Shown: positions 7,332 to 41,705 of the stretch, in pieces
Layout of the letters: each line of letters opens with the position of its first letter
Position numbering within the stretch: position 1 is the stretch's first letter
DNA from: an uncultured Gammaproteobacteria bacterium
GTDB taxonomy: Bacteria > Patescibacteriota > Microgenomatia > JAMCZE01
Length of the DNA: 64,000 bases
Reading direction: 5' to 3'
NCBI GenBank assembly: GCA_964641255.1
Contig: CAZXMM010000001.1
Span: 745,890 to 809,889 of the forward strand
Made by a program: the position numbers and the translations under genes
Notes under the pieces: generated by a model
Database searches by the model: none
What the model was told of the DNA's origin: nothing
Seen by the model: the letters and a program-made list of their open reading frames with translations, nothing else

Positions 7332-7352
7332 TAGTCAAAGACATCTTTTTTA

Positions 7353-9506: not shown

Positions 9507-9522
9507 TAAATCTTAAAACATT

Positions 9523-9921
9523 ATGGACGAACCACTTACTAACCCAGCCGTAAGTCCGCCAGTCAACCCGGTAGTAAATGACAGTGCTAAAGGAGTAGAA
9601 CCCAGTCCCAGACACTGGGGATTTAAAACCATCCTTCTGCTAGCATTGGGTGGGGTAATAGTTTTACTGGGCCTGTTCTATTTAGTGTTGGTGCTTTTTT
9701 CTCGGCCCAAAACTATCCCAGTGCCCACTCCCAAACCCAAAGTAGTCATTAAAGAAGAAATTATTGAGACTCCACCGCTGTCCAAATTTGCCAGCGACAG
9801 CGCTATTATTAGCCTCCGCACTAGTCTACAACAATTGCAGGGAAAGATTGACACTGTAGACTTTTATGAGGCGCAGATCACCCCGCCACTAATTGATACC
9901 AGTATTGCTATCCAGCCATAA
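9523..9921 (+). CDS. Hypothetical single-pass membrane protein with Pro-rich N-terminus
   Basis: PAVSPPVNPVVN, then TM helix TILLLALGGVIVLLGLFYLVLVLF. Confidence 0.45.
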   Translation: MDEPLTNPAVSPPVNPVVNDSAKGVEPSPRHWGFKTILLLALGGVIVLLGLFYLVLVLFSRPKTIPVPTPKPKVVIKEEIIETPPLSKFASDSAIISLRTSLQQLQGKIDTVDFYEAQITPPLIDTSIAIQP

Positions 9922-26265: not shown

Positions 26266-27224
26266 ACGCCAAAAGAGTAGACATAATTATCGTCACCCAC
26301 AATAACTGGCAATATACCCGAGCGTTGTTAAACAGTCTACGACAATACACTGATACCCCCTACCGAGTCATCTGTATCGATAACGCTTCCTCCGACCAAA
26401 CGGGTGAAGAAGTAAAAAGGTACGGCGAGGTGCAATTTTTTCCCCAGGAAACCAATCTGGGCTACGCTAAAGCGGTCAACAAAGGAGTAGAACAAGTTGC
26501 TAGCGAAAATTTCATTCTTCTTAATAATGATACGGTGGTCTCACCCCACTGGCTTAGTGACTGGCTAAGGATCTTTAAGGCGAATCCTCAATATTGGCAG
26601 CTATCTACTAACTCAAATTGCATCATTGATGTAAAAGACGAATTCAGGGGAGTGAGCCATGATAAATGGCAAGAGTATAAAAAGCTCAACACGACAAAAT
26701 CTCCCGAGCAACTCATTAGCGGCTTTTACCCAAAGTACGCTGAATTTTGTCAGGAGCTGAAAAACAAATGGCAAGATACGATCGAAACAATCGAAGCACC
26801 CAAAGGTTTTCTTGGTGGCTGGGCACTTCTAATGAAAGCGGGGGTAATTCCAAAAATTGGTGGCTATCTCTATGACGAACGGTTTCCCTACGGATTTTAT
26901 GAAGACGTGGATTTGTCCTGGCGGATTGGACTGGCGGGAGGGAAAGTAGGGATTGCCAGAGGGGTGTATATCCACCATTTCATCAATACCACCTTTGATT
27001 CTGTGGGCCTAAAAAAGCAACTGTTAGCTAGGCATAACAAATGGCGCTTTATTGATAAGTGGGAAGAGTACCTCATTAAAGAGTATAGGGACCAGTCAGA
27101 GGGAGACATCGATAAACTTAAAGAGCTGCTGGAAACAGACCCGGGACAACAGTCAATTGTAGAGTATCTAGGGATGAAAAGGATTCTAGATATTGAAAGT
27201 TATGACAAAACTGAGTCCAACTAA
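26262..27224 (+). CDS. Family 2 glycosyltransferase
   Basis: IIIVTHNNWQYTRALLNSL...VICIDNASSD...NLGYAKAVN is a GT-A fold with a DxD-type region. Confidence 0.8.
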   Translation: MNAKRVDIIIVTHNNWQYTRALLNSLRQYTDTPYRVICIDNASSDQTGEEVKRYGEVQFFPQETNLGYAKAVNKGVEQVASENFILLNNDTVVSPHWLSDWLRIFKANPQYWQLSTNSNCIIDVKDEFRGVSHDKWQEYKKLNTTKSPEQLISGFYPKYAEFCQELKNKWQDTIETIEAPKGFLGGWALLMKAGVIPKIGGYLYDERFPYGFYEDVDLSWRIGLAGGKVGIARGVYIHHFINTTFDSVGLKKQLLARHNKWRFIDKWEEYLIKEYRDQSEGDIDKLKELLETDPGQQSIVEYLGMKRILDIESYDKTESN

Positions 27225-27432
27225 AATTAACAAAGCCCAAGTTGCTTTTTAGTAGCAGTAACGATGAGACCCCACCGGCAGAGGTTAGGGAAATATATGA
27301 CCAACCACCAGATCCCAAAATGCTTTATGAGCTAAAGTCGGACCATAACTACCGCTATTTCCCCCAAGTGGTCAGAGAGGTAAATATTGTCACGGGGAAA
27401 TTTTTAGATACCTATTTTAGTAGGACTACCCA

Positions 27433-28158
27433 ATGACTACTCCGTACCAGCGGGCTACCGATCCACGACAATATGATAGAGACGATACCGGCTGGCAAGA
27501 ATCATTTAAGGGGCTGGATTCGCCTACCCGGGCTCACTTTTGGGACTTTATAAAACCGACAGACTCACAATGGAAAGGAAAGAGGTTACTTGATATTGGA
27601 GCGGGGACAGGGTGGCTTTTGGTTGAAGCTTTAAGAGAAGGCGCTTCAGCAGCCATTGGAATTGATCCTTCAGAAAAGAATGTTTTAGCTGCGAAAGAAC
27701 TCTACCCCAACGTTGAAGTAATTAAAACGACATTGGAGGAGTATCGATCGAATGTGCCCTTTGACATAATAACTGCGGTTTTTTGTCTTTCTCACATAGC
27801 TGATATCGATTACGGGTTTAAAAAGATTGCTGAGCTAATGCGTCGGGGTGGAGAATTTTTAGCGATAGTTCCAGATCCCGACTATAACCGAAGGGCGAGA
27901 AATGAGTACGAAATTGAGTATCAAGAACTTAACGACCAAGAATATGTTTCTAAGGTAAAAAGGGCGCACGGTACGATAGCCGATATTATTAGAACTATAA
28001 AACGGTACAAAACCGCAGGAAGCAAAGCAGGATTAAAACTGATAAAAGACACTCCCATGAGACCGACTGAAACACTGATGCAAAAAGAGCCAAAGTACCG
28101 TTTAGTAAAAGATATGGCCATGACCCACCTGTTGGAATTTAGAAACCCGCACCAATAG
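27433..28158 (+). CDS. Class I SAM-dependent methyltransferase
   Basis: Motif I LLDIGAGTGWL. Confidence 0.75.
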   Translation: MTTPYQRATDPRQYDRDDTGWQESFKGLDSPTRAHFWDFIKPTDSQWKGKRLLDIGAGTGWLLVEALREGASAAIGIDPSEKNVLAAKELYPNVEVIKTTLEEYRSNVPFDIITAVFCLSHIADIDYGFKKIAELMRRGGEFLAIVPDPDYNRRARNEYEIEYQELNDQEYVSKVKRAHGTIADIIRTIKRYKTAGSKAGLKLIKDTPMRPTETLMQKEPKYRLVKDMAMTHLLEFRNPHQ

Positions 28159-28260
28159 TCAGCTCGGGGCGCCTAACGACTTTTCGCACTGATCCTTAGA
28201 TGCAAGATAGCCAGCAAGGGAGAGTCCCGCCACCCCTGCTCCTACAATTAAAACCTTCAT
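28159..28260 (-). pseudogene. Truncated remnant of an FAD/NAD(P)-binding (Rossmann) oxidoreductase: MKVLIVGAGVAGLSLAGYLASKDQCEKSLGAPS*
   Basis: 33-aa ORF with a textbook GxGxxG dinucleotide-binding N-terminus that terminates after 33 codons. Wedged between the methyltransferase and recG. Confidence 0.35.
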
Positions 28261-28272
28261 CGTAACTAGTAT

Positions 28273-30324
28273 ATGCAATATAATGCCATAATGCCTCTAG
28301 AAAAATTGGCCCTTAACACTTCTATCTCTAAAGTGCCTCTGATTGGGCCAGCTTATGCTAGGCGCATGGAAAATCTGGAGATTAGAACGGTTTCGGATCT
28401 GCTTTATCATTTACCCTCCCGCTTCGACGACTTCTCACTGCTAGCAAAAGCCAATAGCTTGCAAGAAGGGGAAACCGTTACTATTTTTGGAACTGTCCTC
28501 TCGATTAAAAACATCTTTACCCGTAACGGCTTTATGCTGCAACAGGCCGAAGTGGAAGATGATAGTGGCACTTGTGAGGTGATGTGGTTTAACCAGCGCT
28601 TTATTACTAGTGTCATTAAGAGGGGAGATAGAGTCAGTTTGTCTGGCAAGGTCGGCCGCAGTAGTAAGTCTAAGGTTCAGCTGCAAAACCCAGCTTTTGA
28701 AGTCCTCCATCCCGGCCAAAAACCCATTCATACCGGACGGCTCGTTCCCATCTATCCAGAAACCCAAGGCATTAGTAGTAAGTGGCTCAGAAGTCGGATT
28801 AATAAAGTGCTCGAACTCATTACTTCTGGCAATTTGGAAATTAAGGAGTTTTTAGATACTGACGTCTTGCAAGAGAACCATCTCATGGGTCTACAAGAGG
28901 CGCTTTTTCAAGTCCATTTTCCTGATTCACTGGAAAGAGCAGCCAAAGCCAAAGAACGTCTGGCCTTTAATGAACTGCTGCTGTCTCAACTCGAGTCTAA
29001 GCGGCGCCGTCAGGATTGGCAAAAACAAACCGTGGGGAGTATCTTTAAAATTATCGAATTCAAAGAAAAGCTTGACAGCTTTGTAACCAGTCTGCCTTTT
29101 GAACTGACTGGGGCCCAGCAAAAAGTAATTAGTGAAATCTTTAGCGATCTGGGTAAAAACACTCCCATGAATCGACTCCTGCAAGGAGATGTAGGTTCTG
29201 GAAAAACCGTGGTGGCTGCTCTTGGAATGCTTGTCGCCAAGTTAAATGGTTTTCAATCAGTGCTGATGGCGCCAACCGAAATCCTCGCGCAGCAACACTA
29301 CTTAACTCTGACTCAACTCTTTAAACCCCTAGGTCTGGGTGTGGGTATTGCGACCGGTTCACTAAAAGACTTTGAGAACTACGATATTATTGTGGGGACT
29401 CACGCCTTGTTATCAGACAAGATCAGCTATAAAAAACTCGGATTTATTGTTATTGACGAACAACATAGATTTGGAGTGGGACAGAGGTCACTTTTGGCTC
29501 AGAAGGGGACTAACCCGCATATTTTAACCATGACTGCCACTCCCATTCCCCGAACTGTCGCTCTCACGCTCTACGGCGATTTGGATCTCTCGGTCTTAAA
29601 TGAAATGCCCAAAAATCGGTTACCAATTACCACGTGGGTGGTGCCCCGAGAAAAACGCGACAAGGCTTATGAGTGGATTGTAAGCCAAAAAACCCAAGCC
29701 TTTATCGTCTGTCCCCTTATTGAGCAGTCAGAAGCTGAAACTCTGCAAAGTGTTAAGTCCGTCAAAAAGGAATACGAGCGCCTCTTGGAAATCTTTCCCC
29801 AAATGAAACTGGGACTACTGCACGGCCAAATGAGCGCCAAAGAGAAGGATAAAGTGCTAACAAACTTTAAAGTTGGCAAATTAGATATCCTAGTCACCAC
29901 CCCAGTTGTCGAGGTGGGTATCGATATACCTGGGGCCACCATCATGATGATTGAAGCGGCCGACCGTTTTGGTCTGGCTCAACTCCACCAGTTGCGGGGC
30001 CGCGTCGGTCGGGGGGGGAGAAAATCTTATTGCCTGCTCTTTACGGAAAATCCTGCCCCGGCCGCTACTGCCCGGCTGAAATTTATGGAACGCCTCACTG
30101 ATGGAATGGCCCTGGCGGAAGCAGACCTGCGTTTCCGTGGCCCGGGCCAGCGTTTTGGCCAGGCTCAACACGGCCGGTGGAATTTAAAAATCGCCACCTT
30201 TGACGATTTAGCTCTAGTGGAAAAAACTAACGTTTTGTCCCAAAAAGTGTTGGCCAGTCCAGAGCTATTTCCACTCTTGCACAATAGAGTCACAGAAAAT
30301 ACAATACTTATAGCTCAAAACTAA
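28273..30324 (+). CDS. recG: ATP-dependent DNA helicase RecG
   Basis: Wedge/OB N-terminus, Walker A GDVGSGKTVVA, DEQHRFG, QLRGRVGRG. Confidence 0.9.
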   Translation: MQYNAIMPLEKLALNTSISKVPLIGPAYARRMENLEIRTVSDLLYHLPSRFDDFSLLAKANSLQEGETVTIFGTVLSIKNIFTRNGFMLQQAEVEDDSGTCEVMWFNQRFITSVIKRGDRVSLSGKVGRSSKSKVQLQNPAFEVLHPGQKPIHTGRLVPIYPETQGISSKWLRSRINKVLELITSGNLEIKEFLDTDVLQENHLMGLQEALFQVHFPDSLERAAKAKERLAFNELLLSQLESKRRRQDWQKQTVGSIFKIIEFKEKLDSFVTSLPFELTGAQQKVISEIFSDLGKNTPMNRLLQGDVGSGKTVVAALGMLVAKLNGFQSVLMAPTEILAQQHYLTLTQLFKPLGLGVGIATGSLKDFENYDIIVGTHALLSDKISYKKLGFIVIDEQHRFGVGQRSLLAQKGTNPHILTMTATPIPRTVALTLYGDLDLSVLNEMPKNRLPITTWVVPREKRDKAYEWIVSQKTQAFIVCPLIEQSEAETLQSVKSVKKEYERLLEIFPQMKLGLLHGQMSAKEKDKVLTNFKVGKLDILVTTPVVEVGIDIPGATIMMIEAADRFGLAQLHQLRGRVGRGGRKSYCLLFTENPAPAATARLKFMERLTDGMALAEADLRFRGPGQRFGQAQHGRWNLKIATFDDLALVEKTNVLSQKVLASPELFPLLHNRVTENTILIAQN

Positions 30325-30335
30325 GTTCTAACTCT

Positions 30336-30536
30336 ATGACACCACTACCAAAACGCCGACTTTCAACGCGCCGCCAGGGGGATAGAAGATCCCACTTTAA
30401 GCTGTCTTTGGTGGATACCCAGCTTTGTAGCAATTGTAAAAAACCCAGTCTTAGCCACAAAGTCTGTGCTTCCTGCGGCTTTTATAAAGGCAAGCTCGTT
30501 AAGCCCCTTAAAGTCAAAAAAGCAGTCAAGAAATAA
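30336..30536 (+). CDS. rpmF: 50S ribosomal protein L32 (zinc-ribbon form)
   Basis: KRRLSTRRQGDRRSHFKL...CSNC...CASCGFYKG. Confidence 0.85.
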   Translation: MTPLPKRRLSTRRQGDRRSHFKLSLVDTQLCSNCKKPSLSHKVCASCGFYKGKLVKPLKVKKAVKK

Positions 30537-31132
30537 TGAAAACCGCCCTTGATCCCCGGCATCAAAAACGCCAGAAGGTAGTCCAAGAATTGTTTGCGTT
30601 TGACGCTCAAAACAAATCCCAGGCACCCCATACCCCACCAGTAGCAGACCTGACCGATACCGCCCAAAAAATTATTGCCAAGCTGGATTTTTTAGATAAG
30701 CTGATCAGTAAAAACGCTCCCGAACGAGAGATTAACCAAATCAACCAGATTGACCTGGCTATCTTAAGAGTGGCAGTCTTTGAAATCACTTTCGACCGTA
30801 GTGCCCCCACTAAAGCTATAATTGACGAAGCGGTGGAAATTGCCAAGGAATTTGGCAGCGAAAGTAGCCCCCAGTTTGTCAATGGAGTCCTGGGCCAGGT
30901 CTTTAGTGACCCGGACCGTCTTAGATCTATAATAGGAGCTAAACTGGGAGTCGAGGAAGAAAAACTAACGGCGGAAACACTTTTACAGGCGGACCTTAAC
31001 ATTTCCCCCCTAGAAGTAGCGGATTTGCTAGCTCTTTTAGAACGAGAGTTAGGTCTCACTCTTCCTACCACCACCCAGTGTCACACCGTCGGAGATATTT
31101 TTGAGGCCATTGAGGAGGCTAAAGCCGAATGA
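30536..31132 (+). CDS. nusB: Transcription antitermination factor NusB fused to a C-terminal acyl-carrier-protein-like domain
   Basis: NusB core IDLAILRVAVFEI...AIIDEAVEIAKEFGSESSPQFVNGVLGQV. C-terminal 70 aa IIGAKLGVEEEKLTAETLLQADLNISPLEVADLLALLERELGLTL...TVGDIFEAIEEA parallels ACP (IIGEQLGV...LGADSLDTVELVMALEEEF...TVQAAIDYI), with a Ser at the DSL position. Confidence 0.8.
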   Translation: MKTALDPRHQKRQKVVQELFAFDAQNKSQAPHTPPVADLTDTAQKIIAKLDFLDKLISKNAPEREINQINQIDLAILRVAVFEITFDRSAPTKAIIDEAVEIAKEFGSESSPQFVNGVLGQVFSDPDRLRSIIGAKLGVEEEKLTAETLLQADLNISPLEVADLLALLERELGLTLPTTTQCHTVGDIFEAIEEAKAE

Positions 31133-31827
31133 ATATCACTGACCCCTCTCCCTTAGAAAAAATCTTGACCATCAACTTTAGCGATAAGGGCTTACTAACA
31201 GAAGCTTTGACCCATCGCTCTTATCTAAATGAACACCCAACGACTCCATCTTCCAATGAGCGACTGGAATTTCTGGGCGACAGCGTGCTCTCAATTCTCG
31301 TCTCCACCGAACTTTATAAGCTCTACCCCACTTATCCCGAGGGTAAGCTCACAGCTCTGCGCTCCAGCCTGGTTCGGGCTAAAACCTTGGCTGAATTGGC
31401 AGACACCCTCACGCTCGGGGATTTTTTGTTACTGTCCCGAGGCGAAGAAAAGGGTGGGGGGAGAAAGAACGGCGCCATTTTAGCCGATACTTTTGAGGCC
31501 GTCCTGGGCGCCGTCTACCTAGATCAGGGCTTGGCTGCTGCTAAAAAAGTGCTTGCTCGCTATCTTTTCCCCCGGATTGAGGAGCAAAACAACCGACTGG
31601 GCAGTTTGGACTACAAAAGTAGTTTGCAGGAATTTACTCAAGAACAGAGTCACCAGTCACCGACCTATAAAGTGCTCGCCGAAAGTGGCCCGGATCACGC
31701 TAAACATTTTAGCGTTGGCGTATTTTTGGCCACCACCGAACTGGCCCGGGGAGAGGGCAAAAGTAAACAAGAAGCGGAACAAGATGCTGCCCGGCTCGCC
31801 CTTGAGAAGAGTGGTAAGTTAGGATAA
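31129..31827 (+). CDS. rnc: Ribonuclease III
   Basis: ERLEFLGDSVLSILVS signature and C-terminal dsRBD. ATGA overlap with nusB. Confidence 0.9.
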   Translation: MNITDPSPLEKILTINFSDKGLLTEALTHRSYLNEHPTTPSSNERLEFLGDSVLSILVSTELYKLYPTYPEGKLTALRSSLVRAKTLAELADTLTLGDFLLLSRGEEKGGGRKNGAILADTFEAVLGAVYLDQGLAAAKKVLARYLFPRIEEQNNRLGSLDYKSSLQEFTQEQSHQSPTYKVLAESGPDHAKHFSVGVFLATTELARGEGKSKQEAEQDAARLALEKSGKLG

Positions 31828-31837
31828 AATAGCACCT

Positions 31838-32071
31838 ATGGCAGTGAAACTTAGATTGTCCCGAGTCGGCAAACGCAACCACGCACTCTATCGCCTCATC
31901 GTGATCGATGAGCACAAAAAGCGTGATGGTCGGGCCATTGAAATCGTTGGCACTTACGATCCCCACCAAAACACTAACAAATTAACCTGTAAAAAGGACC
32001 GCGTTGATTACTGGCTGTCAGTTGGGGCCAGACCAACAGAAACAGTAGCCCAACTACTTAAATCACTATGA
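31838..32071 (+). CDS. rpsP: 30S ribosomal protein S16
   Basis: MAVKLRLSRVGKRNHALYRLIVIDEHKKRDGRAIE. Confidence 0.9.
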   Translation: MAVKLRLSRVGKRNHALYRLIVIDEHKKRDGRAIEIVGTYDPHQNTNKLTCKKDRVDYWLSVGARPTETVAQLLKSL

Positions 32072-32316
32072 CAGCTGTCGACTTTGTCACTTTCCTTTGT
32101 CAAAATCTAGTTGATAAACCCGAGGCGGTAGTAGTCAGCGCTGAAGAATTGGCAGGAATGACGACAATCCACATCACGGTTGATCAAAGCGATATGGGCA
32201 AGATAATTGGCAAAGAGGGACGTATTATCCATAGCATTCGCGATTTAACCAGGCTCCTGGGAACTAAGCAGCAACTAAACTTAAACGTGGTCTTAACCGA
32301 TAAGCCAAATCCTTAA
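32068..32316 (+). CDS. KH-domain RNA-binding protein (YlqC/UPF0109-like)
   Basis: GKIIGKEGRIIHSIRDL is a KH GxxG loop. Conserved position after rpsP. Confidence 0.8.
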   Translation: MTAVDFVTFLCQNLVDKPEAVVVSAEELAGMTTIHITVDQSDMGKIIGKEGRIIHSIRDLTRLLGTKQQLNLNVVLTDKPNP

Positions 32317-33020
32317 GGCACAAAGATATCCTCGGCACCTAGCTCGCTAATTTTAGCTTCCTGATCCGCAGTAAGTGGTGCTAGCTGACCCCAAACGATT
32401 TCTTTAGCAACTGCTGGCTGATAATAGATTCGCAGCGTAATTTCACCGTTCCAAAGAGTGTCGTTTTGGGGAGTCAGATTAACCGCTTCCACTCCGATTA
32501 GCTGGCTGGTTTTAGGTAAACTGCTCAAAAAAGTGGTGAGTTGACTCCGAGTCCCACTGACAGCCAAAGTTGCCGGAGTAGCTTCTACCCCAAGTGGCAA
32601 GTGGGTAATCGACAAAGTTTCAGTCACCGGTGCCAATTGACCTGCCACGGTCGATATTGTGCCTGGAGAAAATTCTAAGTGGTCTACCCGCACCCCAGCT
32701 TGATTGGCCAGAGTAGTAATTCCGGTGATGACTCCGGAAACTTTTTTTTCATCGGGTAGAGCAGCGGCTACCTTGGCATAGTCACTTGCAATTTTTTGAC
32801 TGTCTCCCGCCGCTCCTGACAAAAAATCCAAATCCTCCTGTTGGGCGGCTACTTCTGCGGTTAACTGATTTAACCGGTCGTTTTGGGCAAGAAGCTCCCG
32901 CACCAACTGGGGAGCAAACAGCGCTACTCCAATTATTTCTACTCCTATCAGGAGCACACTTCCAAAAAGTAGAGCGAATCTTTTGAGTAGACTCTTAGCA
33001 TCAAGAGTACCTTTTTTCAT
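32313..33020 (-). CDS. pilO: Type IV pilus assembly protein PilO-like
   Basis: N-terminal TM helix plus coiled coil. Terminal gene of the pilM-pilN-pilO unit with 4-nt overlaps. Confidence 0.6.
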   Translation of the reverse strand: MKKGTLDAKSLLKRFALLFGSVLLIGVEIIGVALFAPQLVRELLAQNDRLNQLTAEVAAQQEDLDFLSGAAGDSQKIASDYAKVAAALPDEKKVSGVITGITTLANQAGVRVDHLEFSPGTISTVAGQLAPVTETLSITHLPLGVEATPATLAVSGTRSQLTTFLSSLPKTSQLIGVEAVNLTPQNDTLWNGEITLRIYYQPAVAKEIVWGQLAPLTADQEAKISELGAEDIFVP

Positions 33021-33565
33021 AGATCAAGATCTTTGTAACTGGCACTAAGGTTCAAACTAAATTGTCGATTATTGCTGCCCTGCAGTCCCTCGACCACAAT
33101 TTTCCCCAGAGCGGGAACGGCACTAGGATCTCCCAACTTGGCTAGCAGCGCTTCGGTATCTGTAGGATTACTAAGAACCAGTGACGCCCGCACGCTCGAA
33201 CCATTCGGCCAATCCATCGCCTTAATGCTTTCCGGACTAACAGGCAAGGAAAAAATGAATTCGGCGCGTTTGCCAAAATCCAGCTGTCGCGGACGCACTA
33301 CTTCAATAGCCGCTAGCTTGGCTTGAGTGGCTAGTAGCATCTTCGCCTCCGGTTCTTTTTCAGCTAATGCTTCTAAAACCCTTCGTTGCTGTGCTTCCTT
33401 AGCCGTGAGGGCAGTCCTAATTTGTCTTTGCCAAAAGACTAGTCCCAAAAAAAAACCGACTACTACTACTGTAAGTATGGCCCCAAAAATAATGAGGACT
33501 CTTTGCAGTTGCCTCTCCTTTTGGGAGAGCACTGTTTTTTGGGGGAGAAGATTGATTTCGATCAT
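33017..33565 (-). CDS. pilN: Type IV pilus assembly protein PilN
   Basis: MIEINLLPQK start, single TM helix, position after pilM. Confidence 0.75.
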   Translation of the reverse strand: MIEINLLPQKTVLSQKERQLQRVLIIFGAILTVVVVGFFLGLVFWQRQIRTALTAKEAQQRRVLEALAEKEPEAKMLLATQAKLAAIEVVRPRQLDFGKRAEFIFSLPVSPESIKAMDWPNGSSVRASLVLSNPTDTEALLAKLGDPSAVPALGKIVVEGLQGSNNRQFSLNLSASYKDLDL

Positions 33566-34599
33566 AGTTGTTTTTGCGCTAGTCCCACCGCAGTAGTGTA
33601 GAGAGAGGCGTGTTCTAAGAGATTAGTTTTTTGGACATCGGTTAGTAAAATTCCACTAAAGGGGTTAGCAATTTGGATTTCTTGACCGAATTTATCACTG
33701 ATGTATTGCACTAGTCCCGGTAACAGTGCTCCACCGCCGGAAAACACTACCCGTTTTACCTGGTCAGCTGTGTTGACATGATGAGAATCGTAAAAGGCAA
33801 GGGCTTTTTGCATCTCACTGATGGTCATATCAACAATTGGTCTGAGACTGGCTAGGATTTTGCCCTCCAGTTTACTAGGATCTAGGCCGTAAGTTTTTTT
33901 GTATTCCTCAGCTTGGGCTAATTCCAACCCAAGTTCCGTAGCCACTGCTCGACTCATCGCCACCCCCCCAGTGCCAATGGTGTGGACAAACATAAAGTCG
34001 CCGTTTTTTAGAACCAGTAACGAGGTAGCTTGGGCACCAATATGAACTAGCAGAGTAATGGGTGAGTTCTCCTCAAAACCGACGATCGACCGGGCAACTG
34101 AAAAAGCTTCGGTTTCGATACCAATTACTTCCAGGCCCGCGCCGGCAGCCAGACCCATATATTCATTAACAACACTGTTGGGCGCGGCCACTAGCAGTAC
34201 TTCCATTTTTGAATCCGGTGAGTTGATAGCTGGGGTCGCTATTACCTGATGGCGAAGAACCACATCACTTAACGGTAGAGAAATATACTGTTCTGCTTGC
34301 CACTTGATCGCCGCTGCTAAATCTCCGGCTTCCAGATAAGGCATCTCTACGACCCGGGTATCGACCTGGGCCTCGGGCAGAGAGATAGTGACGTCTTTAC
34401 AGTTAAACCCTCCATCCTTAAGCAGCTGCTTAATGGCGTCATTTATTAAGCCTTGACGCTCTTGGGTCGTCTCACTAACTGGCGTGGTCACGACCGCCGC
34501 CTCCAACAGTTTAAATTTGCCCGGCGCCGTTGACTCAAGTTGCACCGCTTTAATAAAAGCGCTGCCAATATCGAGACCTAGGTGTCTTTGAAATTTCAT
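33562..34599 (-). CDS. pilM: Type IV pilus assembly ATPase-like protein PilM (actin fold)
   Basis: LGLDIGSAFIKAVQL and a second actin-fold half; 345 aa. Confidence 0.85.
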   Translation of the reverse strand: MKFQRHLGLDIGSAFIKAVQLESTAPGKFKLLEAAVVTTPVSETTQERQGLINDAIKQLLKDGGFNCKDVTISLPEAQVDTRVVEMPYLEAGDLAAAIKWQAEQYISLPLSDVVLRHQVIATPAINSPDSKMEVLLVAAPNSVVNEYMGLAAGAGLEVIGIETEAFSVARSIVGFEENSPITLLVHIGAQATSLLVLKNGDFMFVHTIGTGGVAMSRAVATELGLELAQAEEYKKTYGLDPSKLEGKILASLRPIVDMTISEMQKALAFYDSHHVNTADQVKRVVFSGGGALLPGLVQYISDKFGQEIQIANPFSGILLTDVQKTNLLEHASLYTTAVGLAQKQL

Positions 34600-34603
34600 A
34601 GTG

Positions 34604-35440
34604 TTACAGACTGCCTCCGGAAAAAATCACATTATCAAAAAAGGCCGGTAGAGCTGTAGGACTTTGCACCGCCTGCAACCGCTTAACCGTATTATTAGTC
34701 GTGGTGGCGGTCGCCTCAATCACTATCGTTTGAGTACTAAGAGCGGTACTACCACTAGGGTTACGGCCACACACAGCTACATTAACGCTAGTAACTGTTG
34801 CGTCACCCAAGGGCTTAACTCGAATTAGAAGGGGAGTAGGACTCGTCCCAATGGCTACATTCTGGGCACAAGAGGTCATGCCCGAAACATTACAGATAAC
34901 GCTGGCACAACTGCTGGCGGCTACCGCATTATGAGCGGCTAATGTATTGGCTGGAGTCGACCCCGACAACCCTTTGGCCACTCGTCTAGTCAGCTGATTA
35001 GCGGCGTTAAGTGAGATTATTTCTAGGGAAGCGTTATTGTCGTTCCACAAAACATCGACGGCAGAGATGCCCGCTGGATTACCCGTAGGCAGCGTCACCT
35101 GAAAAACATCGTCTTTGGCTAAAGAGGTCATTAGAGCATAATTTTGACTGGCCGGACAGATTAGGTAAGTGAGACTCTGGATACCATCAATCGGACTAGC
35201 CACCAAATCAAAACTCGTGGGGGTAGCGCAGCGAATAGTGCCATTTTGCACATAATCAGCTATGGCCGCCGACAAAGCCGCCTCGGCCGCGGCATACGCG
35301 CGAACACCCGAATCAACATAGCTAACTTGACGTAAGTCAGACAGGGTGCGTGACGCTGCTGACAGACCGACGGTAAGGCCCAATAGTCCTAAAAGTAGGG
35401 CTAGAACCGTGATCTGACCAGAACGTAGGCAGTTGCGCAT
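34604..35440 (-). CDS. PilX-like / pilus-associated protein with N-terminal hydrophobic segment
   Basis: N-terminus QITVLALLLGLLGLTVGLSAASRTL resembles PilX_N. Sits in the pilin operon. Confidence 0.45.
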   Translation of the reverse strand: MRNCLRSGQITVLALLLGLLGLTVGLSAASRTLSDLRQVSYVDSGVRAYAAAEAALSAAIADYVQNGTIRCATPTSFDLVASPIDGIQSLTYLICPASQNYALMTSLAKDDVFQVTLPTGNPAGISAVDVLWNDNNASLEIISLNAANQLTRRVAKGLSGSTPANTLAAHNAVAASSCASVICNVSGMTSCAQNVAIGTSPTPLLIRVKPLGDATVTSVNVAVCGRNPSGSTALSTQTIVIEATATTTNNTVKRLQAVQSPTALPAFFDNVIFSGGSL

Positions 35441-35489
35441 GGTTCCATTATGGAGAGTTCTGAGTACTTTGGCAAGATTAGGCTTACGC

Positions 35490-36044
35490 CTAATATTGTC
35501 TGGGGGTGATCGTGTCAGTTAAAACAATCCGGCCACACTGATCAGCTCTCGATACTCCAATTTTTTGTTGGACTGTCAACACCACGGTAATTGCACCAGA
35601 AGTCAAATCTCTAGTCACTTGCGCACCTGAGGTAGTACAAGAAGTTCCACAAGCGCCGCTGGGACAATCGAGGACTGAAACGCCCGATGAGGATAATTGC
35701 TCCGTTGGAGTACATACTCCGCCAGAAGCCTGTCCCCAAAGAACAATACCGTCTGTTCCAAAGCGATAACAGTCCAGAGGATTGGTACAGTTTGCCGCTT
35801 GGTAAGTAGTGACCGTGATCCCAGGAGAGACCGTCTGACTACCAACTGAGGTAGCACAAGCACTAGTGCGAATTGAATCCCGAAAACGCTGCAAAATAAT
35901 GCTGGCATTTTGCCGCACTTCACCACGCACTGCGGCTTGATTACTATTCTGAATCACCTGGAGAAAAAAAGTCGTCCCTGCTAGCATCAAAATACCAAAT
36001 ACCGCAAGGACAATGACCAGTTCGACTAAGGTAAAGCCTTTCAT
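35490..36044 (-). CDS. Type IV pilin-like protein (minor pilin / pseudopilin)
   Basis: Prepilin leader and cleavage motif MKGFTLVELVIVLAVFGIL. Confidence 0.7.
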   Translation of the reverse strand: MKGFTLVELVIVLAVFGILMLAGTTFFLQVIQNSNQAAVRGEVRQNASIILQRFRDSIRTSACATSVGSQTVSPGITVTTYQAANCTNPLDCYRFGTDGIVLWGQASGGVCTPTEQLSSSGVSVLDCPSGACGTSCTTSGAQVTRDLTSGAITVVLTVQQKIGVSRADQCGRIVLTDTITPRQY

Positions 36045-36047
36045 TGA

Positions 36048-36527
36048 TTAGTAATTATAAAAATAGGTATCCAGAGCGATAGTTTGGCATTTACTGCGGT
36101 CCATCCAAGCGACTTTGGCACTCACTCTGATCTGGGCGCTACTAACTTGGGAGACTTGCACCGAGCGGTAAAATGGTGTGGCGGCGATGGCATAGCCAGT
36201 AGTACAAGAGCTGACACAACTGGCGGCCGCCGCCCCACACGAGCTTAGATAGCCGTCAGCGTAACAACCCCCGGCACAGACCTTGGCTAGAGTACTTTGA
36301 AAACGATTAGCTTGATAATAACCCCGCGCCTGCTCCAGGGCTTGCTCGGCGTAACTCGCCGCTTGGCTCCGTAGGGAAGCGCTGGTGCTGGCTGCCCCAA
36401 TTTGGATGGTGAGCCCCACAATGGCCACCCCGATGACCGAGAGAATGAGTAGTGCGATCACAGTCTCGATTAAAGAAATACCGGCAGTTAGGGGGTGGGT
36501 GGTTGCCATAAAATTACAAACTATCAA
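36048..36527 (-). CDS. Pseudopilin-like protein
   Basis: TAGISLIETVIALLILSVIG is a G/ISLIE prepilin motif. Confidence 0.55.
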   Translation of the reverse strand: MIVCNFMATTHPLTAGISLIETVIALLILSVIGVAIVGLTIQIGAASTSASLRSQAASYAEQALEQARGYYQANRFQSTLAKVCAGGCYADGYLSSCGAAAASCVSSCTTGYAIAATPFYRSVQVSQVSSAQIRVSAKVAWMDRSKCQTIALDTYFYNY

Positions 36528-37029
36528 TTCGTATCACTCTCATATTGTCACCACGAATTATCACTGACCGGGTAGTAGTCCCGTTCGTAACGGTGATCGT
36601 CAGATCACTCGCTGATAACACTCCTGCAGTGCAAGCAAAACCATTACTTCCAGTGCAACTGCCACAGAGGTTGGTGGGAGAACTAAAGCTAGTTAAATTA
36701 GGGTTAGCAAAACAAATCGTTCCACTACTGGGTGACAGAGTAACTCCCACCGGTAAATTCACAACCGTTCCGTCAGGCAGTTGATAAGATGTAGAGCTAA
36801 CTAGTGTTACCGCCCGCACCGATGAGCCGGCCGCGCCATTTTGCGCCTGGTTCTGGGCCGCCCGCAAACTACTCATTAGTTGGTTTTGGGCGTCAATCAC
36901 TAGCTGAGAGCGGTTAAAAGTCCCGAAGCCAAAAAAGGCAATGGTCGCGATAATACCAATCACCGCCATGACGATGATTAGTTCAATAGTGCTATAACCC
37001 CCACTAAAGTGAGCAGTTCTTGTGACCAT
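36514..37029 (-). CDS. Pseudopilin-like protein
   Basis: GGYSTIELIIVMAVIGIIA prepilin motif. Confidence 0.6.
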   Translation of the reverse strand: MVTRTAHFSGGYSTIELIIVMAVIGIIATIAFFGFGTFNRSQLVIDAQNQLMSSLRAAQNQAQNGAAGSSVRAVTLVSSTSYQLPDGTVVNLPVGVTLSPSSGTICFANPNLTSFSSPTNLCGSCTGSNGFACTAGVLSASDLTITVTNGTTTRSVIIRGDNMRVIRIDSL

Positions 37030-37757
37030 AGGGCAGCGATAAGAGTACCAACAATTAGAAACGGTCCTAAAGGAATTGTGGCAGAAAGCTTGGTCTTCTT
37101 CAAGAGAAGCAAGAGGGTAGCCACCAGTCCGCCACTGACAAACGCCACCCAGAGAGCCACTAAAATATTGGGCCAGCCTAGAAGGAGTCCCATCACCAAC
37201 GCCAATTTAACATCGCCCAGTCCCATACCCCTAAACCAAGTAATTAAGACGACAAGAAAGAACCCCAGCGAGGTGGCTAACCCGATTAGTAAATAAGCAG
37301 GAGAAATTGCTAGGCCAGCCAGGCCCGAGAGAATTAACATTTCGTCGGGAATTAAGCCGTAGTGTAAATCGGCAAAAAAGATGACGATAAAACTAAAAGC
37401 GATTAGGCAGAGTAGTAGGGAAGTCACAGCGGCCGTTGGGGTCAGGACAAAACACAGGACAAAGGACAAAGCTGTTAGCCCCTCAACTAGGGGGTAGTGC
37501 CAGCCAATTGGTCGGTGGCACCACCGGCATTTACCGCGCAACAGACAAAAGGAGAGCAGGGGGATATTATCTCGGGCCGCAATCTGTTTTTGGCATTTTG
37601 GACACAGACTGCGCCCCTGCCAAAATTTGGGAGCCTTAGGATCACAGAGTCTATAGATTAGAACGTTGGCAAAACTACCAAAAGCTAGCCCGATTATACC
37701 TATTAAAAGTAAAAAAAGTGGCCCTTCAGTCACCAGTCTATCATACCAAAATCCCAC
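36978..37757 (-). CDS. pilD: Prepilin peptidase (A24 family)
   Basis: GSFANVLIYRL...CPKCQ...IPLLSF zinc-binding box, multiple TM helices, DxxxG-like region. Confidence 0.85.
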   Translation of the reverse strand: MGFWYDRLVTEGPLFLLLIGIIGLAFGSFANVLIYRLCDPKAPKFWQGRSLCPKCQKQIAARDNIPLLSFCLLRGKCRWCHRPIGWHYPLVEGLTALSFVLCFVLTPTAAVTSLLLCLIAFSFIVIFFADLHYGLIPDEMLILSGLAGLAISPAYLLIGLATSLGFFLVVLITWFRGMGLGDVKLALVMGLLLGWPNILVALWVAFVSGGLVATLLLLLKKTKLSATIPLGPFLIVGTLIAALWSQELLTLVGVIALLN

Positions 37758-37798
37758 ACCTCCTGGTGTGGGATTTGTGTATCAACTCTGAAAAACAA

Positions 37799-38233
37799 CT
37801 ACTCAGCGACGCAATTGGGATCAGCAGTAGTGTTAGTGTTATAACCACCAGCGTTGGCGGTGGAAATTTTCCAAGTTGAGGCCGACGCTGAAGCCGTCTC
37901 CAGCTCTGCACAAATAGCGTAAGTGCCAGCGGCACTGTTAACGCTATAAGTATAGGCGCCCGCATCTTGCGGATCAACCGGAATTCTAGGAATGTATGTG
38001 GGGGCTAAGTCCGCTGTTACAGCAGGATAAGTCTGAGTCTCGGAATAATAAGCCTGAAGAGCTGTTCCCAAGGCGCGGACATCGGCTTTTCTCTTGGTAT
38101 CTCTCGTTTGGGCCTGTACCCGAGTGAACGAAATAACACCAATAGTTGCTAAAATAGCAATGACGGTGACCACAATCATCAGCTCTACCAGCGTAAATCC
38201 TTTTTTGTGATTTGATTTGATATAGTGTGTCAT
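37799..38233 (-). CDS. Type IV pilin (major-pilin-like), paralog 3
   Basis: KGFTLVELMIVVTVIAILATIG. Confidence 0.8.
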   Translation of the reverse strand: MTHYIKSNHKKGFTLVELMIVVTVIAILATIGVISFTRVQAQTRDTKRKADVRALGTALQAYYSETQTYPAVTADLAPTYIPRIPVDPQDAGAYTYSVNSAAGTYAICAELETASASASTWKISTANAGGYNTNTTADPNCVAE

Positions 38234-38259
38234 TTGTTCACCCCCTTTCCCTTTGACAA

Positions 38260-38757
38260 TTATTTTGGACCATCGAATGTATATAATTTTGTTTCGCCAC
38301 CTATAGTGATGGTGTAGGTATTGTTAGCGGCAGTGTAAGTATAAGTGTAGGCGACGTCACTGCCAGAGTAAGCTTTAATTCCAGTCACGGTGCCCACAGC
38401 GGAAGCGGCGGTAGAAACATTAGCCACTGTTCCACTGGGGTCAGTAAGCGCAGTGGCACCGTAACACCGCCCAAAAGTAACTGGGCTGCCAAGTGCCGGA
38501 TTATTACTGGTATTACCTCCCAGGTTGGTCCAATCAAAACTCGCGTTGCCCGGATAAGAACCCAGCTCGGCCTGAAAACACTCTAGGGCTGCTTGGAGCC
38601 CCTTCACAACTTGGGCCCGCTTAACGTCTCTTGCAGCTTTTTGGGCTTGACCAATACCCAAAAGAGCGAGGGTGGAGAGCACTCCAATCACCGTAATGAC
38701 AATCATGAGCTCAATGAGGGTAAAGCCGCGGTGCAGATTAAATCGGGCAGATTTCAT
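38260..38757 (-). CDS. Type IV pilin, paralog 2
   Basis: RGFTLIELMIVITVIGVLSTLA. Confidence 0.8.
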   Translation of the reverse strand: MKSARFNLHRGFTLIELMIVITVIGVLSTLALLGIGQAQKAARDVKRAQVVKGLQAALECFQAELGSYPGNASFDWTNLGGNTSNNPALGSPVTFGRCYGATALTDPSGTVANVSTAASAVGTVTGIKAYSGSDVAYTYTYTAANNTYTITIGGETKLYTFDGPK

Positions 38758-38803
38758 ATAACTTTAGTGTGGCGCCTTTTGACTACCCTGTCAAGAGGAC
38801 GGA

Positions 38804-39415
38804 TTAGTTAGGACTTTTGAAAATAACTGTACCCCCAGATTCTTTAGCTAAACAGAGCTCATAATCCTGCCCCGTGGCTGAGGAAGTTTTATAAGCATAA
38901 CCGGCGGGAATGGGACCGGTATCACTAAAGGATGCATAGTAATAGCTGCCATCTGGCCAACCACACGGATTGCTACTTCCCAACCACGCCGCTGTGCGCC
39001 AGTCTGTTCCTGGGTGATTAAAATAGTTCAACTCCAAACAAGTAGCGGCGTAAGCATTGGAAAAAATTTGCCCTTTGGACGGATCCTTGTACTGAGAAGC
39101 GTCAATATAGCCGCGGCCATGGAGTTGAGCAATCATAGTCGCGAACCCCGAATTACTGTTAACCCGCAGCGGATTACATCCCCCCACATTAACTGTGTCG
39201 CCAGATTTTGGGTAGTTTTTGGCATCGGCATAGTAACGTTCCAGCGCCCCTTGCAATCCGGTCATAAACTGAACGCGCTGGGTGTCCCTGGCTGAGGCTT
39301 GAAGTTTTCCTACTCCTACTAAGGCTAAAGTGGACAGTATGCCAATCACCAAAAGAACAATCATGATTTCAATGAGACTAAAACCCTTAGTTATGGCTAC
39401 TAAATTTTTCCTCAT
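38804..39415 (-). CDS. Type IV pilin, paralog 1
   Basis: KGFSLIEIMIVLLVIGILSTLA. Confidence 0.8.
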   Translation of the reverse strand: MRKNLVAITKGFSLIEIMIVLLVIGILSTLALVGVGKLQASARDTQRVQFMTGLQGALERYYADAKNYPKSGDTVNVGGCNPLRVNSNSGFATMIAQLHGRGYIDASQYKDPSKGQIFSNAYAATCLELNYFNHPGTDWRTAAWLGSSNPCGWPDGSYYYASFSDTGPIPAGYAYKTSSATGQDYELCLAKESGGTVIFKSPN

Positions 39416-39418
39416 ACT

Positions 39419-40630: not shown

Positions 40631-40649
40631 AGTAGGGGAGGCGTCTTGG

Positions 40650-41702: not shown

Positions 41703-41705
41703 AAC

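What the first reader, a model, noticed from the sequence alone, without database searches (positions are those of the whole stretch)
30536..31132. NusB fused to an ACP-like domain at the ancestral acpP position
The ORF is continuous. The N-terminal 125 aa align with NusB. The C-terminal 70 aa follow the ACP fold pattern (IIGxxLGV...L..DL...S.LE...L...LE.E.G..L......TVGD...IE), with a Ser at the phosphopantetheine-attachment position (NISPLE versus DSLDTVE). The gene lies between rpmF and rnc, exactly where acpP sits in the widespread rpmF-plsX-fab-acpP-rnc arrangement. No fatty-acid synthesis genes are present here. A lineage that lost FAS may have retained and re-purposed an ACP-like domain by fusing it to NusB.
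Basis: partly seen in the sequence, partly recalled or inferred. Interest (0 to 1): 0.6.

Follow-up and report, generated by a model that had tools for sequence, protein, structure and literature searches.

The report
NusB fused to serine-less ACP domain
A tiny-genome (CPR) bacterium makes the rRNA-transcription factor NusB as one rigid protein with a leftover acyl-carrier-protein fold that has lost the serine needed to carry fatty acids, so a relic of lipid synthesis has apparently been kept for another, still unknown, job next to NusB and RNase III.

Summary
The ORF (30536-31132, +, 198 aa) is real and continuous. Residues 1-125 are NusB, above the curated cut-off. Residues 126-198 are an ACP four-helix fold: Pfam PP-binding scores above its gathering threshold, and the AlphaFold model overlays solved ACPs at about 1 A.

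It is not an assembly error. About 60 protein clusters at 38-55% identity share the architecture.

The phosphopantetheine serine aligns with Pro158, not Ser157. That column is Asp, Pro or Glu in 56 of 60 orthologues.

In 80 related Microgenomates loci, all with recG-rpmF-nusB-[ACP-like]-rnc-rpsP-KH, 30 have a separate 78-86 aa ACP-like gene between nusB and rnc, 3 have the fusion and 47 have neither. Only 1 of 33 keeps Ser. Selection on the stand-alone gene is as strong as on nusB and rnc.

A second NusB-ACP fusion family, with an intact DSL serine and a floppy linker, lies inside yceD-rpmF-fabD-fabG operons of Chloroflexota, the sister phylum of CPR. So the nusB-acp linkage may predate loss of fatty-acid synthesis.

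Best reading: a non-carrier ACP relic that works as a NusB-bound interaction module in rRNA antitermination or processing. Its partner is unknown.

The parts
30536..31132 (+). Complete nusB::acp-like ORF (198 aa plus stop)
   Evidence: ORF list and sequence. Pfam NusB plus PP-binding. The same protein occurs on other contigs. About 60 orthologous fused clusters exist.
30536..30910 (+). NusB domain (aa 1-125), with a conserved basic N-terminus MKTALDPRHQKRQ
   Evidence: PF01029 E 1.7e-25. TIGR01951 scores 96.2 bits, above the 88.35 cut-off. Foldseek hits NusB structures 1eyv, 1tzt and 3d3b. K2, R8, H9 and R12 are nearly invariant or invariant.
30911..31129 (+). ACP-like four-helix domain (aa 126-198), acidic (pI 4.4), joined to NusB with almost no linker
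   Evidence: PF00550 scores 26.1 bits, above 20.8. phmmer to PDB ACPs gives E 5.7e-9. Model helices are 126-137, 150-154, 158-172 and 185-197, with pTM 0.89. Rmsd to solved ACPs is about 1 A. pI.
31004..31009 (+). Codons for Ser157-Pro158. Pro158 occupies the position of the phosphopantetheine-attachment Ser (E. coli Ser36). Ser157 occupies that of Asp35.
   Evidence: Ungapped alignments to 2ehs, 6lvt, 4dxe and 2kwl. The column is D38 P5 E5 N4 S4 Q2 K1 T1 in 60 fused orthologues. It is Pro in 118 of 120 stand-alone relatives.
31007..31051 (+). Helix II ('recognition helix', aa 158-172), with conserved acidic residues E160, D163 and E169 that correspond to E. coli ACP D38, E41 and E47
   Evidence: E160 is present in 56 of 60, D163 in 58 of 60 and E169 in 55 of 60. 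Helix limits come from the model. The mapping to E. coli numbering follows the alignment.
30336..30536 (+). rpmF (ribosomal protein L32). Its stop overlaps the nusB::acp start.
   Evidence: PF01783 E 3.5e-17. Conserved upstream of nusB in nearly all of the 80 related loci.
31129..31827 (+). rnc (RNase III). Its ATG overlaps the TGA of nusB::acp, which suggests translational coupling.
   Evidence: PF14622, PF00636 and dsrm. Sequence. Conserved downstream in all 80 loci.
28273..30324 (+). recG, first gene of the conserved cluster recG-rpmF-nusB-(acp-like)-rnc-rpsP-KH
   Evidence: RecG_wedge, DEAD and Helicase_C domains. Synteny.
31838..32316 (+). rpsP (31838-32071) and a KhpA-type KH-domain gene (32068-32316), the downstream end of the conserved cluster
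   Evidence: Precomputed Pfam Ribosomal_S16 and KH_KhpA-B on the identical contig. Synteny.

Best explanation
The gene encodes a genuine NusB whose C-terminus continues, with essentially no linker, into a domain descended from the fatty-acid-synthesis acyl carrier protein gene (acpP).

Shown here:
- The domain keeps the ACP four-helix fold and the acidic face of helix II.
- It has lost the serine that carries phosphopantetheine (Pro158 here; Asp in most orthologues). It therefore cannot carry acyl groups in the canonical way.
- The same serine-less ACP relic exists in many Microgenomates as a small separate gene squeezed between nusB and rnc.
- The relic evolves under purifying selection.
- It has been fused to NusB more than once and lost many times.
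- An intact-Ser NusB-ACP fusion sits in the FAS operon of Chloroflexota.

Inferred:
- The relic is a stoichiometric partner of NusB (gene-fusion, or 'Rosetta stone', logic plus a rigid predicted two-domain structure).
- It works as a protein-docking or electrostatic module of the NusB/NusE-BoxA rRNA antitermination and processing machinery, using the classical acidic ACP docking surface to hold a basic partner.
- Candidate partners, in order of my preference, are NusB/S10 itself, the co-translated RNase III, and other Nus-complex or ribosomal proteins.
- It is accessory rather than essential, because 47 of 80 related species lack it.
For: Fold and identity.

Ser loss:
- One search gives the register.
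- 56 of 60 fused orthologues lack Ser at the site.
- 32 of 33 locus-derived ACP-like sequences lack it.
- the column is Pro in 118 of 120 stand-alone relatives, within the motif (D/E)L(N/G)LGPIELNDLL.

Constraint:
- Near-invariant D153, L154, E160, D163, L164, L168 and E169.
- Mean pairwise identity is 43%, against 58-65% for the NusB part.
- pN/pS is 0.32 for the stand-alone gene, 0.36 for nusB and 0.30 for rnc.

Linkage to NusB and rnc:
- All 80 loci carry recG-rpmF-nusB-[acp-like]-rnc-rpsP-KH.
- The ACP-like ORF abuts or overlaps both neighbours by a few nucleotides.

Fusion history:
- Fused forms appear in at least two separated places on a RecG+RNase III+NusB tree, with separate-gene or ACP-less sister taxa.

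Structure:
- The window protein has pTM 0.89 and no disordered segment.
- The Chloroflexota fusion has pTM 0.58 and a disordered linker.

Origin:
- Chloroflexota carry yceD-rpmF-fabD-fabG-nusB::acp, with Ser in 67 of 70.
- B. subtilis has an acpA-rnc operon (PMC4838370).
- CPR is sister to Chloroflexota (10.1101/2020.07.15.205187).

Precedent and background:
- Plasmodium mitochondrial ACP is an ACP kept without Ppant after FAS loss (PMC8547962).
- CPR bacteria are described as putatively unable to synthesise membrane lipids; in one CPR group (Nealsonbacteria) ACP synthase is reported missing (PMC7242380).
Against: - No partner or activity has been shown. The interaction-module role is inference.
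- 47 of 80 related species have no ACP-like gene at all, so any function is dispensable or replaceable.
- The domain is less conserved than NusB.
- dS is saturated, so pN/pS is only a rough guide.
- I could not inspect the model coordinates, so which face of the ACP-like domain touches NusB is unknown.
- Most fused orthologues have Thr or Ser one residue before the canonical site (50 of 60). Non-canonical modification there is not formally excluded.
- Only 64 kb of a genome of at least 950 kb was screened for a PPTase.
- The ACP-like domain shows no closer sequence affinity to Chloroflexota ACPs than to Aquifex or Thermotoga AcpP. Common ancestry of the nusB-acp linkage rests on gene order alone.
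Confidence: 0.6

Rival explanations
1. The domain is still a working carrier protein (holo-ACP). Ser157, or Thr at that position in orthologues, is phosphopantetheinylated, and the protein shuttles scavenged acyl chains for membrane lipid assembly while tethered to NusB.
For: - The Pfam PP-binding hit is above threshold.
- The fold is very close to AcpP.
- A hydroxyl residue sits one position before the canonical site in 50 of 60 fused orthologues.
- Four of 60 fused orthologues, 1 of 33 locus-derived ACP-like sequences and 1 of 120 stand-alone relatives do have Ser at the canonical site.
Against: - The canonical Ser column is Pro here, and Asp, Glu, Pro, Asn or Gln in nearly all relatives.
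- The largest stand-alone subfamily has Gly-Pro at the two positions, with no hydroxyl at all (118 of 120).
- All NCBIfam ACP models score far below their cut-offs.
- No ACPS/Sfp, PlsX or Fab domain was found in about 50 window ORFs or next to the gene in 80 relatives.
- A CPR lipid study reports missing ACP synthase in one CPR group and describes CPR as putatively unable to synthesise membrane lipids (PMC7242380).
- From my own knowledge, Thr is not a known PPTase acceptor.
Confidence: 0.05
2. The domain is a decaying, functionless remnant of acpP. It happens to be read through from nusB and is on its way to deletion.
For: - It is absent in 47 of 80 related species, including the nearest sampled relative of the window (L022).
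- The Ser is lost.
- It is less conserved than NusB.
Against: - The fold is predicted with pLDDT above 90 throughout.
- Seven positions are nearly invariant across orthologues that share only 38-55% identity.
- Hundreds of stand-alone homologues share an almost fixed motif.
- pN/pS equals that of nusB and rnc.
- Reduced CPR genomes rarely keep dead sequence in frame across such divergence (my inference).
Confidence: 0.1
3. The ACP-like module is primarily an RNase III partner (regulator or recruiter) rather than a NusB partner. Fusion to NusB merely tethers RNase III to BoxA-bound transcription complexes, so that the 16S and 23S processing stems are cut co-transcriptionally.
For: - The ACP-like gene or domain is always immediately upstream of rnc, often overlapping its start.
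- acpA-rnc is also a transcription unit in B. subtilis (PMC4838370).
- The acidic helix II is retained.
- From my own knowledge, Nus factors are thought to hold the rRNA leader near RNA polymerase until the RNase III stem forms.
Against: - No ACP-like::RNase III fusion was seen in 80 loci.
- RNase III length and charge do not differ convincingly between ACP-plus and ACP-minus lineages.
- In Chloroflexota the NusB-ACP fusion is not next to rnc.
Confidence: 0.2
4. The fusion is an assembly or sequencing artefact: a lost stop codon or a frameshift near 30910 joins two separate genes.
For: Most relatives that have the ACP-like sequence encode it as a separate ORF, often with 4-nt overlaps that a single indel could fuse.
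Against: - The identical 198-aa protein is on other contigs (3 contigs read).
- About 55 distinct clusters at 45-55% identity have the same tight junction, with a median of 18 residues between the NusB GVL motif and the ACP LGV motif.
- There is no start codon or stop remnant at the junction.
- The junction is modelled confidently.
Confidence: 0.02

Closest known systems
AcpP, the type II FAS acyl carrier protein (E. coli AcpP; Aquifex 2ehs; Thermotoga 6lvt)
   Same: - Four-helix fold at rmsd about 1-2 A.
- 34-38% identity.
- An acidic helix II with residues equivalent to D38, E41 and E47.
- A gene position upstream of rnc, as in B. subtilis acpA-rnc.
   Different: - The DSL serine is replaced: Pro158 here, Asp in most orthologues.
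- It scores below every NCBIfam ACP cut-off.
- It is covalently fused to NusB.
- There are no FAS genes around it.
NusB (E. coli, M. tuberculosis and T. maritima structures 3d3b, 1eyv, 1tzt)
   Same: The N-terminal 125 aa pass the nusB equivalog cut-off, have the NusB fold and have a conserved basic N-terminus.
   Different: - It is short, about 120 aa, as in other Microgenomates.
- It carries an extra C-terminal ACP-fold domain.
- It is encoded in an rpmF-nusB-rnc operon.
Chloroflexota 'transcription antitermination factor NusB/acyl carrier protein' fusions (the IMG annotation; uncharacterised)
   Same: - NusB at the N-terminus and ACP at the C-terminus in one ORF.
- Located downstream of rpmF.
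   Different: - The Chloroflexota proteins keep the ADSLD serine in 67 of 70.
- They have a disordered linker of 30-70 aa (pTM 0.58).
- They have an in-frame SD-like sequence and an ATG or GTG at the ACP start.
- They lie inside a fabD-fabG operon.
- The window protein has none of these features.
Plasmodium falciparum mitochondrial ACP (mACP), an ACP without a Ppant group (Falekun et al. 2021, PMC8547962)
   Same: An ACP homologue retained after loss of the local FAS pathway and lacking the phosphopantetheine group. For Plasmodium it is shown to act purely as a protein-binding subunit.
   Different: - It is eukaryotic and organellar.
- Its partner is known (Isd11-Nfs1) and it is essential.
- It is not fused to another protein.
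- Here the partner is unknown and the module is dispensable in many relatives.
RsmB/Sun 16S rRNA methyltransferase (NusB-like N-terminal domain fused to a catalytic domain)
   Same: It is a precedent for the NusB fold serving as an N-terminal RNA-binding module of a larger protein. RsmB models hit residues 46-125 weakly.
   Different: The C-terminal partner there is a SAM methyltransferase, not an ACP fold. The window protein is a true NusB by its score.

Membership tests
NusB (TIGR01951 / PF01029) | Sequence score above the curated family cut-off | tested here: met
   TIGR01951 scores 96.2 bits against 88.35. PF01029 scores 90.4 bits against 23.1.
NusB (TIGR01951 / PF01029) | All-helical NusB fold | tested here: met
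   Foldseek top hits are 1eyv, 1tzt, 3imq and 3d3b, with probability 1.00 and TMt 0.65-0.73.
NusB (TIGR01951 / PF01029) | Forms a heterodimer with S10 (NusE) and binds BoxA RNA | not testable with these tools
   No complex prediction or binding assay is available, and there is no rRNA operon in the window.
Acyl carrier protein (PF00550; TIGR00517 / NF002148 AcpP) | Four-helix ACP fold and a PP-binding profile match | tested here: met
   PF00550 scores 26.1 bits against 20.8. Rmsd is 0.9-1.8 A to solved ACPs.
Acyl carrier protein (PF00550; TIGR00517 / NF002148 AcpP) | Score above the curated AcpP cut-offs | tested here: not met
   The best is NF002148 at 37.7 bits against 71. TIGR00517 scores 29.4 bits against 70.45.
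Acyl carrier protein (PF00550; TIGR00517 / NF002148 AcpP) | Conserved Ser of the D-S-L motif at the N-terminus of helix II (the phosphopantetheine attachment site) | tested here: not met
   It is Pro158 in the window. Ser occurs in only 4 of 60 fused orthologues, 1 of 33 locus-derived ACP-like sequences and 1 of 120 stand-alone relatives.
Acyl carrier protein (PF00550; TIGR00517 / NF002148 AcpP) | A cognate phosphopantetheinyl transferase (AcpS/Sfp) and acyl-ACP-using enzymes in the genome | tested here: inconclusive
   None was found among about 50 window ORFs or in the flanks of 80 related loci. Only 64 kb of a genome of at least 950 kb could be read.
Chloroflexota-type NusB/ACP fusion | NusB and ACP in one ORF | tested here: met
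Chloroflexota-type NusB/ACP fusion | Intact ADSLD motif, a long flexible linker with an internal SD-like sequence and start codon, and a fabD-fabG operon context | tested here: not met
   - The window has Pro158 and an 18-residue motif spacing, against a median of 43.
- It has no internal start.
- Its pTM is 0.89, against 0.58.
- It has no fab genes.
Ppant-less, FAS-independent ACP (Plasmodium mACP type; functional analogy only) | ACP fold, attachment Ser lost, local FAS absent, retained under selection | tested here: met
   FAS absence is shown only for the window and the loci, and is otherwise taken from the literature.
Ppant-less, FAS-independent ACP (Plasmodium mACP type; functional analogy only) | A demonstrated protein partner bound without Ppant | not testable with these tools
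   The partner is inferred to be NusB from repeated fusion and the rigid model. No experiment or multimer prediction was possible.

The most novel reading that the evidence does not exclude
ACP is a previously unrecognised component or regulator of the NusB-dependent rRNA antitermination system in the Chloroflexota plus CPR lineage. In Chloroflexota, a NusB-tethered holo- or acyl-ACP would report lipid-synthesis status to rRNA transcription, coupling membrane growth to ribosome production. When CPR lost fatty-acid synthesis, the moonlighting contact was all that remained, and it was frozen as a serine-less ACP fold. Asp or Glu at the old attachment site in most fused orthologues may mimic the phosphate of the holo form. 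The fold is bound to, or fused with, NusB next to RNase III. The nusB-acp linkage would then also be a rare genomic character supporting the sister relationship of CPR and Chloroflexota.
Probability: 0.2. Interest if true: 0.8.

Novelty: new variant of a known kind. Interest (0 to 1): 0.55.

Why it matters
- ACP is one of the most connected proteins in bacteria, but I found no published link between it and transcription antitermination. Here ACP and NusB are linked in two phyla: by fusion in both, and also as neighbouring genes in Microgenomates.
- In the lineage that lost fatty-acid synthesis, the carrier function is gone while the fold and its docking helix persist under selection. That is a natural experiment separating a moonlighting role of ACP from its carrier role, as happened for Plasmodium mitochondrial ACP.
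- The finding gives a testable handle on how ribosome synthesis might be wired to membrane synthesis.
- It flags hundreds of database entries named 'acyl carrier protein' or 'phosphopantetheine-binding protein' in Patescibacteria that cannot be canonical carriers. This matters when lipid metabolism is inferred for CPR genomes.
- It offers a gene-order character bearing on the CPR-Chloroflexota relationship.

Tried and rejected
- Foldseek against afdb50 was not available on the machine.
- The one exhaustive profile search was meant to use only the ACP-like columns. The NusB columns were kept (191 profile positions), so it mostly returned NusB proteins. It did reveal the Chloroflexota fusion family by accident.
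- I looked for specific sequence kinship between the Microgenomates ACP-like domain and Chloroflexota ACPs and found none. Aquifex, Thermotoga, E. coli and B. subtilis AcpP score as well or better.
- I compared RNase III and NusB length and net charge between ACP-plus and ACP-minus lineages. The differences are small and confounded by phylogeny, so they do not identify a partner.
- The promoter and terminator scan of 27000-33500 gave nothing beyond chance: 11 promoter-like sites against 6.2 +/- 2.8 expected. One site (30906-30933) lies at the domain junction, and I treat it as coincidence.
- Rfam found only four tRNAs in the window, with no rRNA or BoxA context.
- Three literature searches found no paper on a NusB-ACP fusion or on serine-less ACPs in CPR.
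- A first phmmer-based census under-counted stand-alone ACP-like genes (25). A profile HMM raised the count to 30.
- I rejected a frameshift artefact, a true holo-ACP and a neutral remnant, for the reasons given under the rival explanations.
Full report
**1. What is in the sequence**

The window holds one uninterrupted ORF at 30536-31132 on the + strand, 198 aa. Its ATG overlaps the TAA of the upstream L32 gene (TAATG). Its TGA overlaps the ATG of the downstream RNase III gene (ATGA).

- Pfam places NusB on residues 14-122 (E 1.7e-25). It places PP-binding on residues 127-190 at 26.1 bits, above the gathering score of 20.8.
- NCBIfam's nusB equivalog is passed (96.2 against 88.35 bits). Every ACP model is hit, but all score far below their cut-offs (14-38 against 65-146 bits).
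- The last 76 residues find solved AcpPs by phmmer; the best is Aquifex aeolicus 2ehs at E 5.7e-9.
- An AlphaFold2 model built on 61 homologues has pLDDT 94.7 and pTM 0.89. Six NusB helices are followed after two residues by four ACP helices.
- Foldseek against the PDB matches the N-half to NusB structures. It matches the C-half to ACPs at 0.9-1.8 A over about 70 residues. No solved chain contains both domains.

**2. Not an artefact**

The identical protein is on other contigs, 235 kb (Logan) and 950 kb (NCBI). More telling, about 60 protein clusters at 38-55% identity cover 98% of it with the same tight junction.

**3. The serine**

HMMER aligns the motif region to four solved ACPs without gaps. 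The window's a-d-l-n-i-s-P-l-e-v-a-d-l lies on e-d-l-g-a-d-S-l-d-v-v-e-l. The attachment serine (E. coli Ser36) therefore corresponds to Pro158 (codon 31007-31009).

| Set | Residues at the attachment-Ser column |
|---|---|
| 60 fused orthologues | D38, P5, E5, N4, S4, Q2, K1, T1 |
| Same 60, preceding column | T40, S10, others 10 |

Positions equivalent to the acidic 'recognition helix' residues of AcpP are nearly invariant: E160 (= D38), D163 (= E41) and E169 (= E47), together with D153, L154, L164 and L168. The domain is acidic, with pI about 4.4.

**4. Relatives and context**

A scan of one genome per species returned 80 loci. All are Microgenomates-type CPR: Daviesbacteria, Amesbacteria, Woesebacteria, Levybacteria, Gottesmanbacteria, Blackburnbacteria, Beckwithbacteria and Shapirobacteria. 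Many of the records are mislabelled.

Every locus carries recG-rpmF-nusB-[x]-rnc-rpsP-KH. With a profile HMM, x falls into three states:

| State of x | Loci |
|---|---|
| Separate 78-86 aa ACP-like ORF, usually abutting or overlapping both neighbours by a few nucleotides | 30 |
| ACP-like sequence fused to NusB (L001, L005, L006), as in the window | 3 |
| Absent | 47 |

- Only 1 of these 33 ACP-like sequences has Ser at the attachment column. Pro is the commonest residue.
- A profile search of 5.8 billion proteins found 765 relatives. The best 120 are stand-alone proteins of 76-88 aa, and several are named 'acyl carrier protein' by NCBI. 118 of the 120 have Pro at the Ser column, in the motif (D/E)L(N/G)LGPIELNDLL.
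- Serine loss is thus general and is shared by the separate-gene forms, so it does not depend on fusion.
- In seven Daviesbacteria loci, pN/pS of the ACP-like gene is 0.32. That matches nusB (0.36) and rnc (0.30), although dS is saturated.
- On a neighbour-joining tree of RecG+RNase III+NusB (997 columns, no bootstrap), fused forms occur in at least two separated clades: the window/L006 region and the Amesbacteria. Their sisters carry the separate gene or none.
- The junction architectures also differ between these fused forms. Fusion and loss have each happened repeatedly.

**5. A second, serine-bearing NusB-ACP family**

The exhaustive profile search surfaced longer proteins (220-300 aa) that cover both domains. 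Aligned, they show an invariant A-D-S-L-D motif (12 of 12; 67 of 70 with 3 Thr).

- In a further search, nearly all of the roughly 100 top-scoring clusters carry both Pfam domains. IMG names some of them 'transcription antitermination factor NusB/acyl carrier protein'.
- Their genes lie in yceD-rpmF-fabD-fabG-(asp23)-nusB::acp-tatA-tatC on genomes of 2-3.4 Mb.
- Neighbouring proteins belong to clusters named Dehalococcoidia and Anaerolineaceae, so the hosts are Chloroflexota.
- The two domains are separated by a longer spacer: a median of 43 residues between reference motifs, against 18 in the Microgenomates fusions.
- AlphaFold predicts a disordered linker and pTM 0.58.
- All four junctions examined keep an AGGAG-like sequence 8-12 nt before an in-frame ATG or GTG at the ACP start. 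Free ACP is therefore probably also made by internal initiation (inference). The window gene has no such start.

**6. Evolutionary reading (inference)**

- B. subtilis transcribes acpA-rnc-smc-ftsY together (PMC4838370).
- From my own knowledge, its wider order is recG-fapR-plsX-fabD-fabG-acpA-rnc...ffh-rpsP-khpA. That mirrors the Microgenomates cluster minus the lipid genes and plus nusB.
- Chloroflexota, reported as the sister lineage of CPR (10.1101/2020.07.15.205187), have nusB joined to acp downstream of rpmF-fabD-fabG.
- The simplest history is an ancestral rpmF-fab-nusB-acpP arrangement. FAS genes were lost in CPR. The acp gene was retained next to nusB and lost its serine. It was later fused to NusB repeatedly or lost.
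- This rests on gene order only. The ACP-like domain is no closer in sequence to Chloroflexota ACPs than to Aquifex or Thermotoga AcpP.

**7. How it most likely works**

Shown:
- an ACP fold without the attachment Ser;
- a conserved acidic helix II;
- purifying selection;
- obligate linkage to nusB and rnc;
- repeated fusion to NusB;
- a rigid predicted two-domain body.

Inferred:
- The module binds NusB. Where it is fused, that binding is permanent.
- It acts as a docking or electrostatic element of the NusB/S10-BoxA rRNA antitermination and processing system.
- RNase III, S10 and other basic proteins are candidate targets.

A precedent exists for an ACP retained without phosphopantetheine after FAS loss and acting purely by protein binding. 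This is Plasmodium mitochondrial ACP (PMC8547962).

CPR bacteria are described as putatively unable to synthesise membrane lipids, and one CPR group is reported to lack ACP synthase (PMC7242380). No PPTase or Fab/PlsX domain was found among about 50 window ORFs. That covers only about 7% of the genome.

**8. Comparison and novelty**

By its tested features the protein is a member of NusB. It is not a member of functional ACPs, because the defining serine was tested and is absent, although it has the ACP fold. It differs from the Chloroflexota fusions in four ways: serine, linker, internal start and operon context.

The architecture is present in public databases under generic names. I found no paper that describes it. 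I rate it a new variant of known kinds: a degenerate carrier domain used as an accessory domain of a transcription factor. Interest is moderate, 0.55. The link between ACP and NusB across two phyla is unexpected and testable, but no function is demonstrated, and many relatives do without the module.

Noticed in passing
L082-L088 (Chloroflexota loci), e.g. L084:8001-8699, L088:7001-7750: Chloroflexota encode NusB-ACP fusions with an intact DSL serine inside yceD-rpmF-fabD-fabG operons. Each of the four junctions keeps an SD-like AGGAG 8-12 nt before an in-frame ATG or GTG at the ACP start. This suggests two products (fused and free ACP) from one ORF.
   Followed up: partly
L002-L080 (30 loci), e.g. 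L007:6366-6602, L045:2770-3006: Hundreds of Patescibacteria proteins that NCBI or IMG name 'acyl carrier protein' have Pro instead of the phosphopantetheine serine (118 of the 120 best hits). They are probably mis-annotated functionally, which could mislead metabolic reconstructions of CPR genomes.
   Followed up: partly
window 52011-53517 (-): A LAGLIDADG homing-endonuclease ORF (52011-52598) overlaps the end of a tyrosine recombinase/integrase ORF (52564-53517). This may be a mobile-element remnant.
   Followed up: no
window 32313-43448 (-): A large type IV pilus cluster runs directly after the rpsP-KH genes. It contains PilM/PilO-like genes, a prepilin peptidase, PilC, a PilT-like and a PilB-like ATPase, and several small ORFs with no Pfam hit that may be pilins.
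   Followed up: no
window 6031-9921 (+): A run of six consecutive ORFs (198, 181, 195, 219, 261 and 132 aa) has no Pfam match at E<=1e-5. One of them (7359-7946) begins inside a predicted tRNA (7353-7434), so its called start is doubtful.
   Followed up: no
window 30906-30933 (+): A sigma-70-like promoter match (GTGACC-16-TATAAT, 10 of 12) lies exactly at the NusB/ACP-like domain junction. The scan as a whole is not clearly above chance, so this is probably coincidence. It could be a vestige of a former intergenic region.
   Followed up: no
L084:7609-8001 and B. subtilis (own knowledge): An Asp23-family gene sits immediately before nusB in the Chloroflexota FAS operon. The same asp23(yqhY)-nusB pair follows accB-accC in B. 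subtilis. NusB is thus linked to lipid-synthesis genes in a second way.
   Followed up: no
locus titles (e.g. L002, L003, L006): Many CPR (Microgenomates) MAGs in the species-representative collection are titled 'uncultured Gammaproteobacteria bacterium'. Their gene content and NusB/RecG phylogeny place them among the Microgenomates.
   Followed up: no
window 3979-5415 (+) and 63347-63991 (-): Two atypical proteins. One is a 478-aa protein in which only residues 365-472 match Hsp70. The other is a 213-aa protein whose only match is a C-terminal DksA/TraR zinc finger.
   Followed up: no
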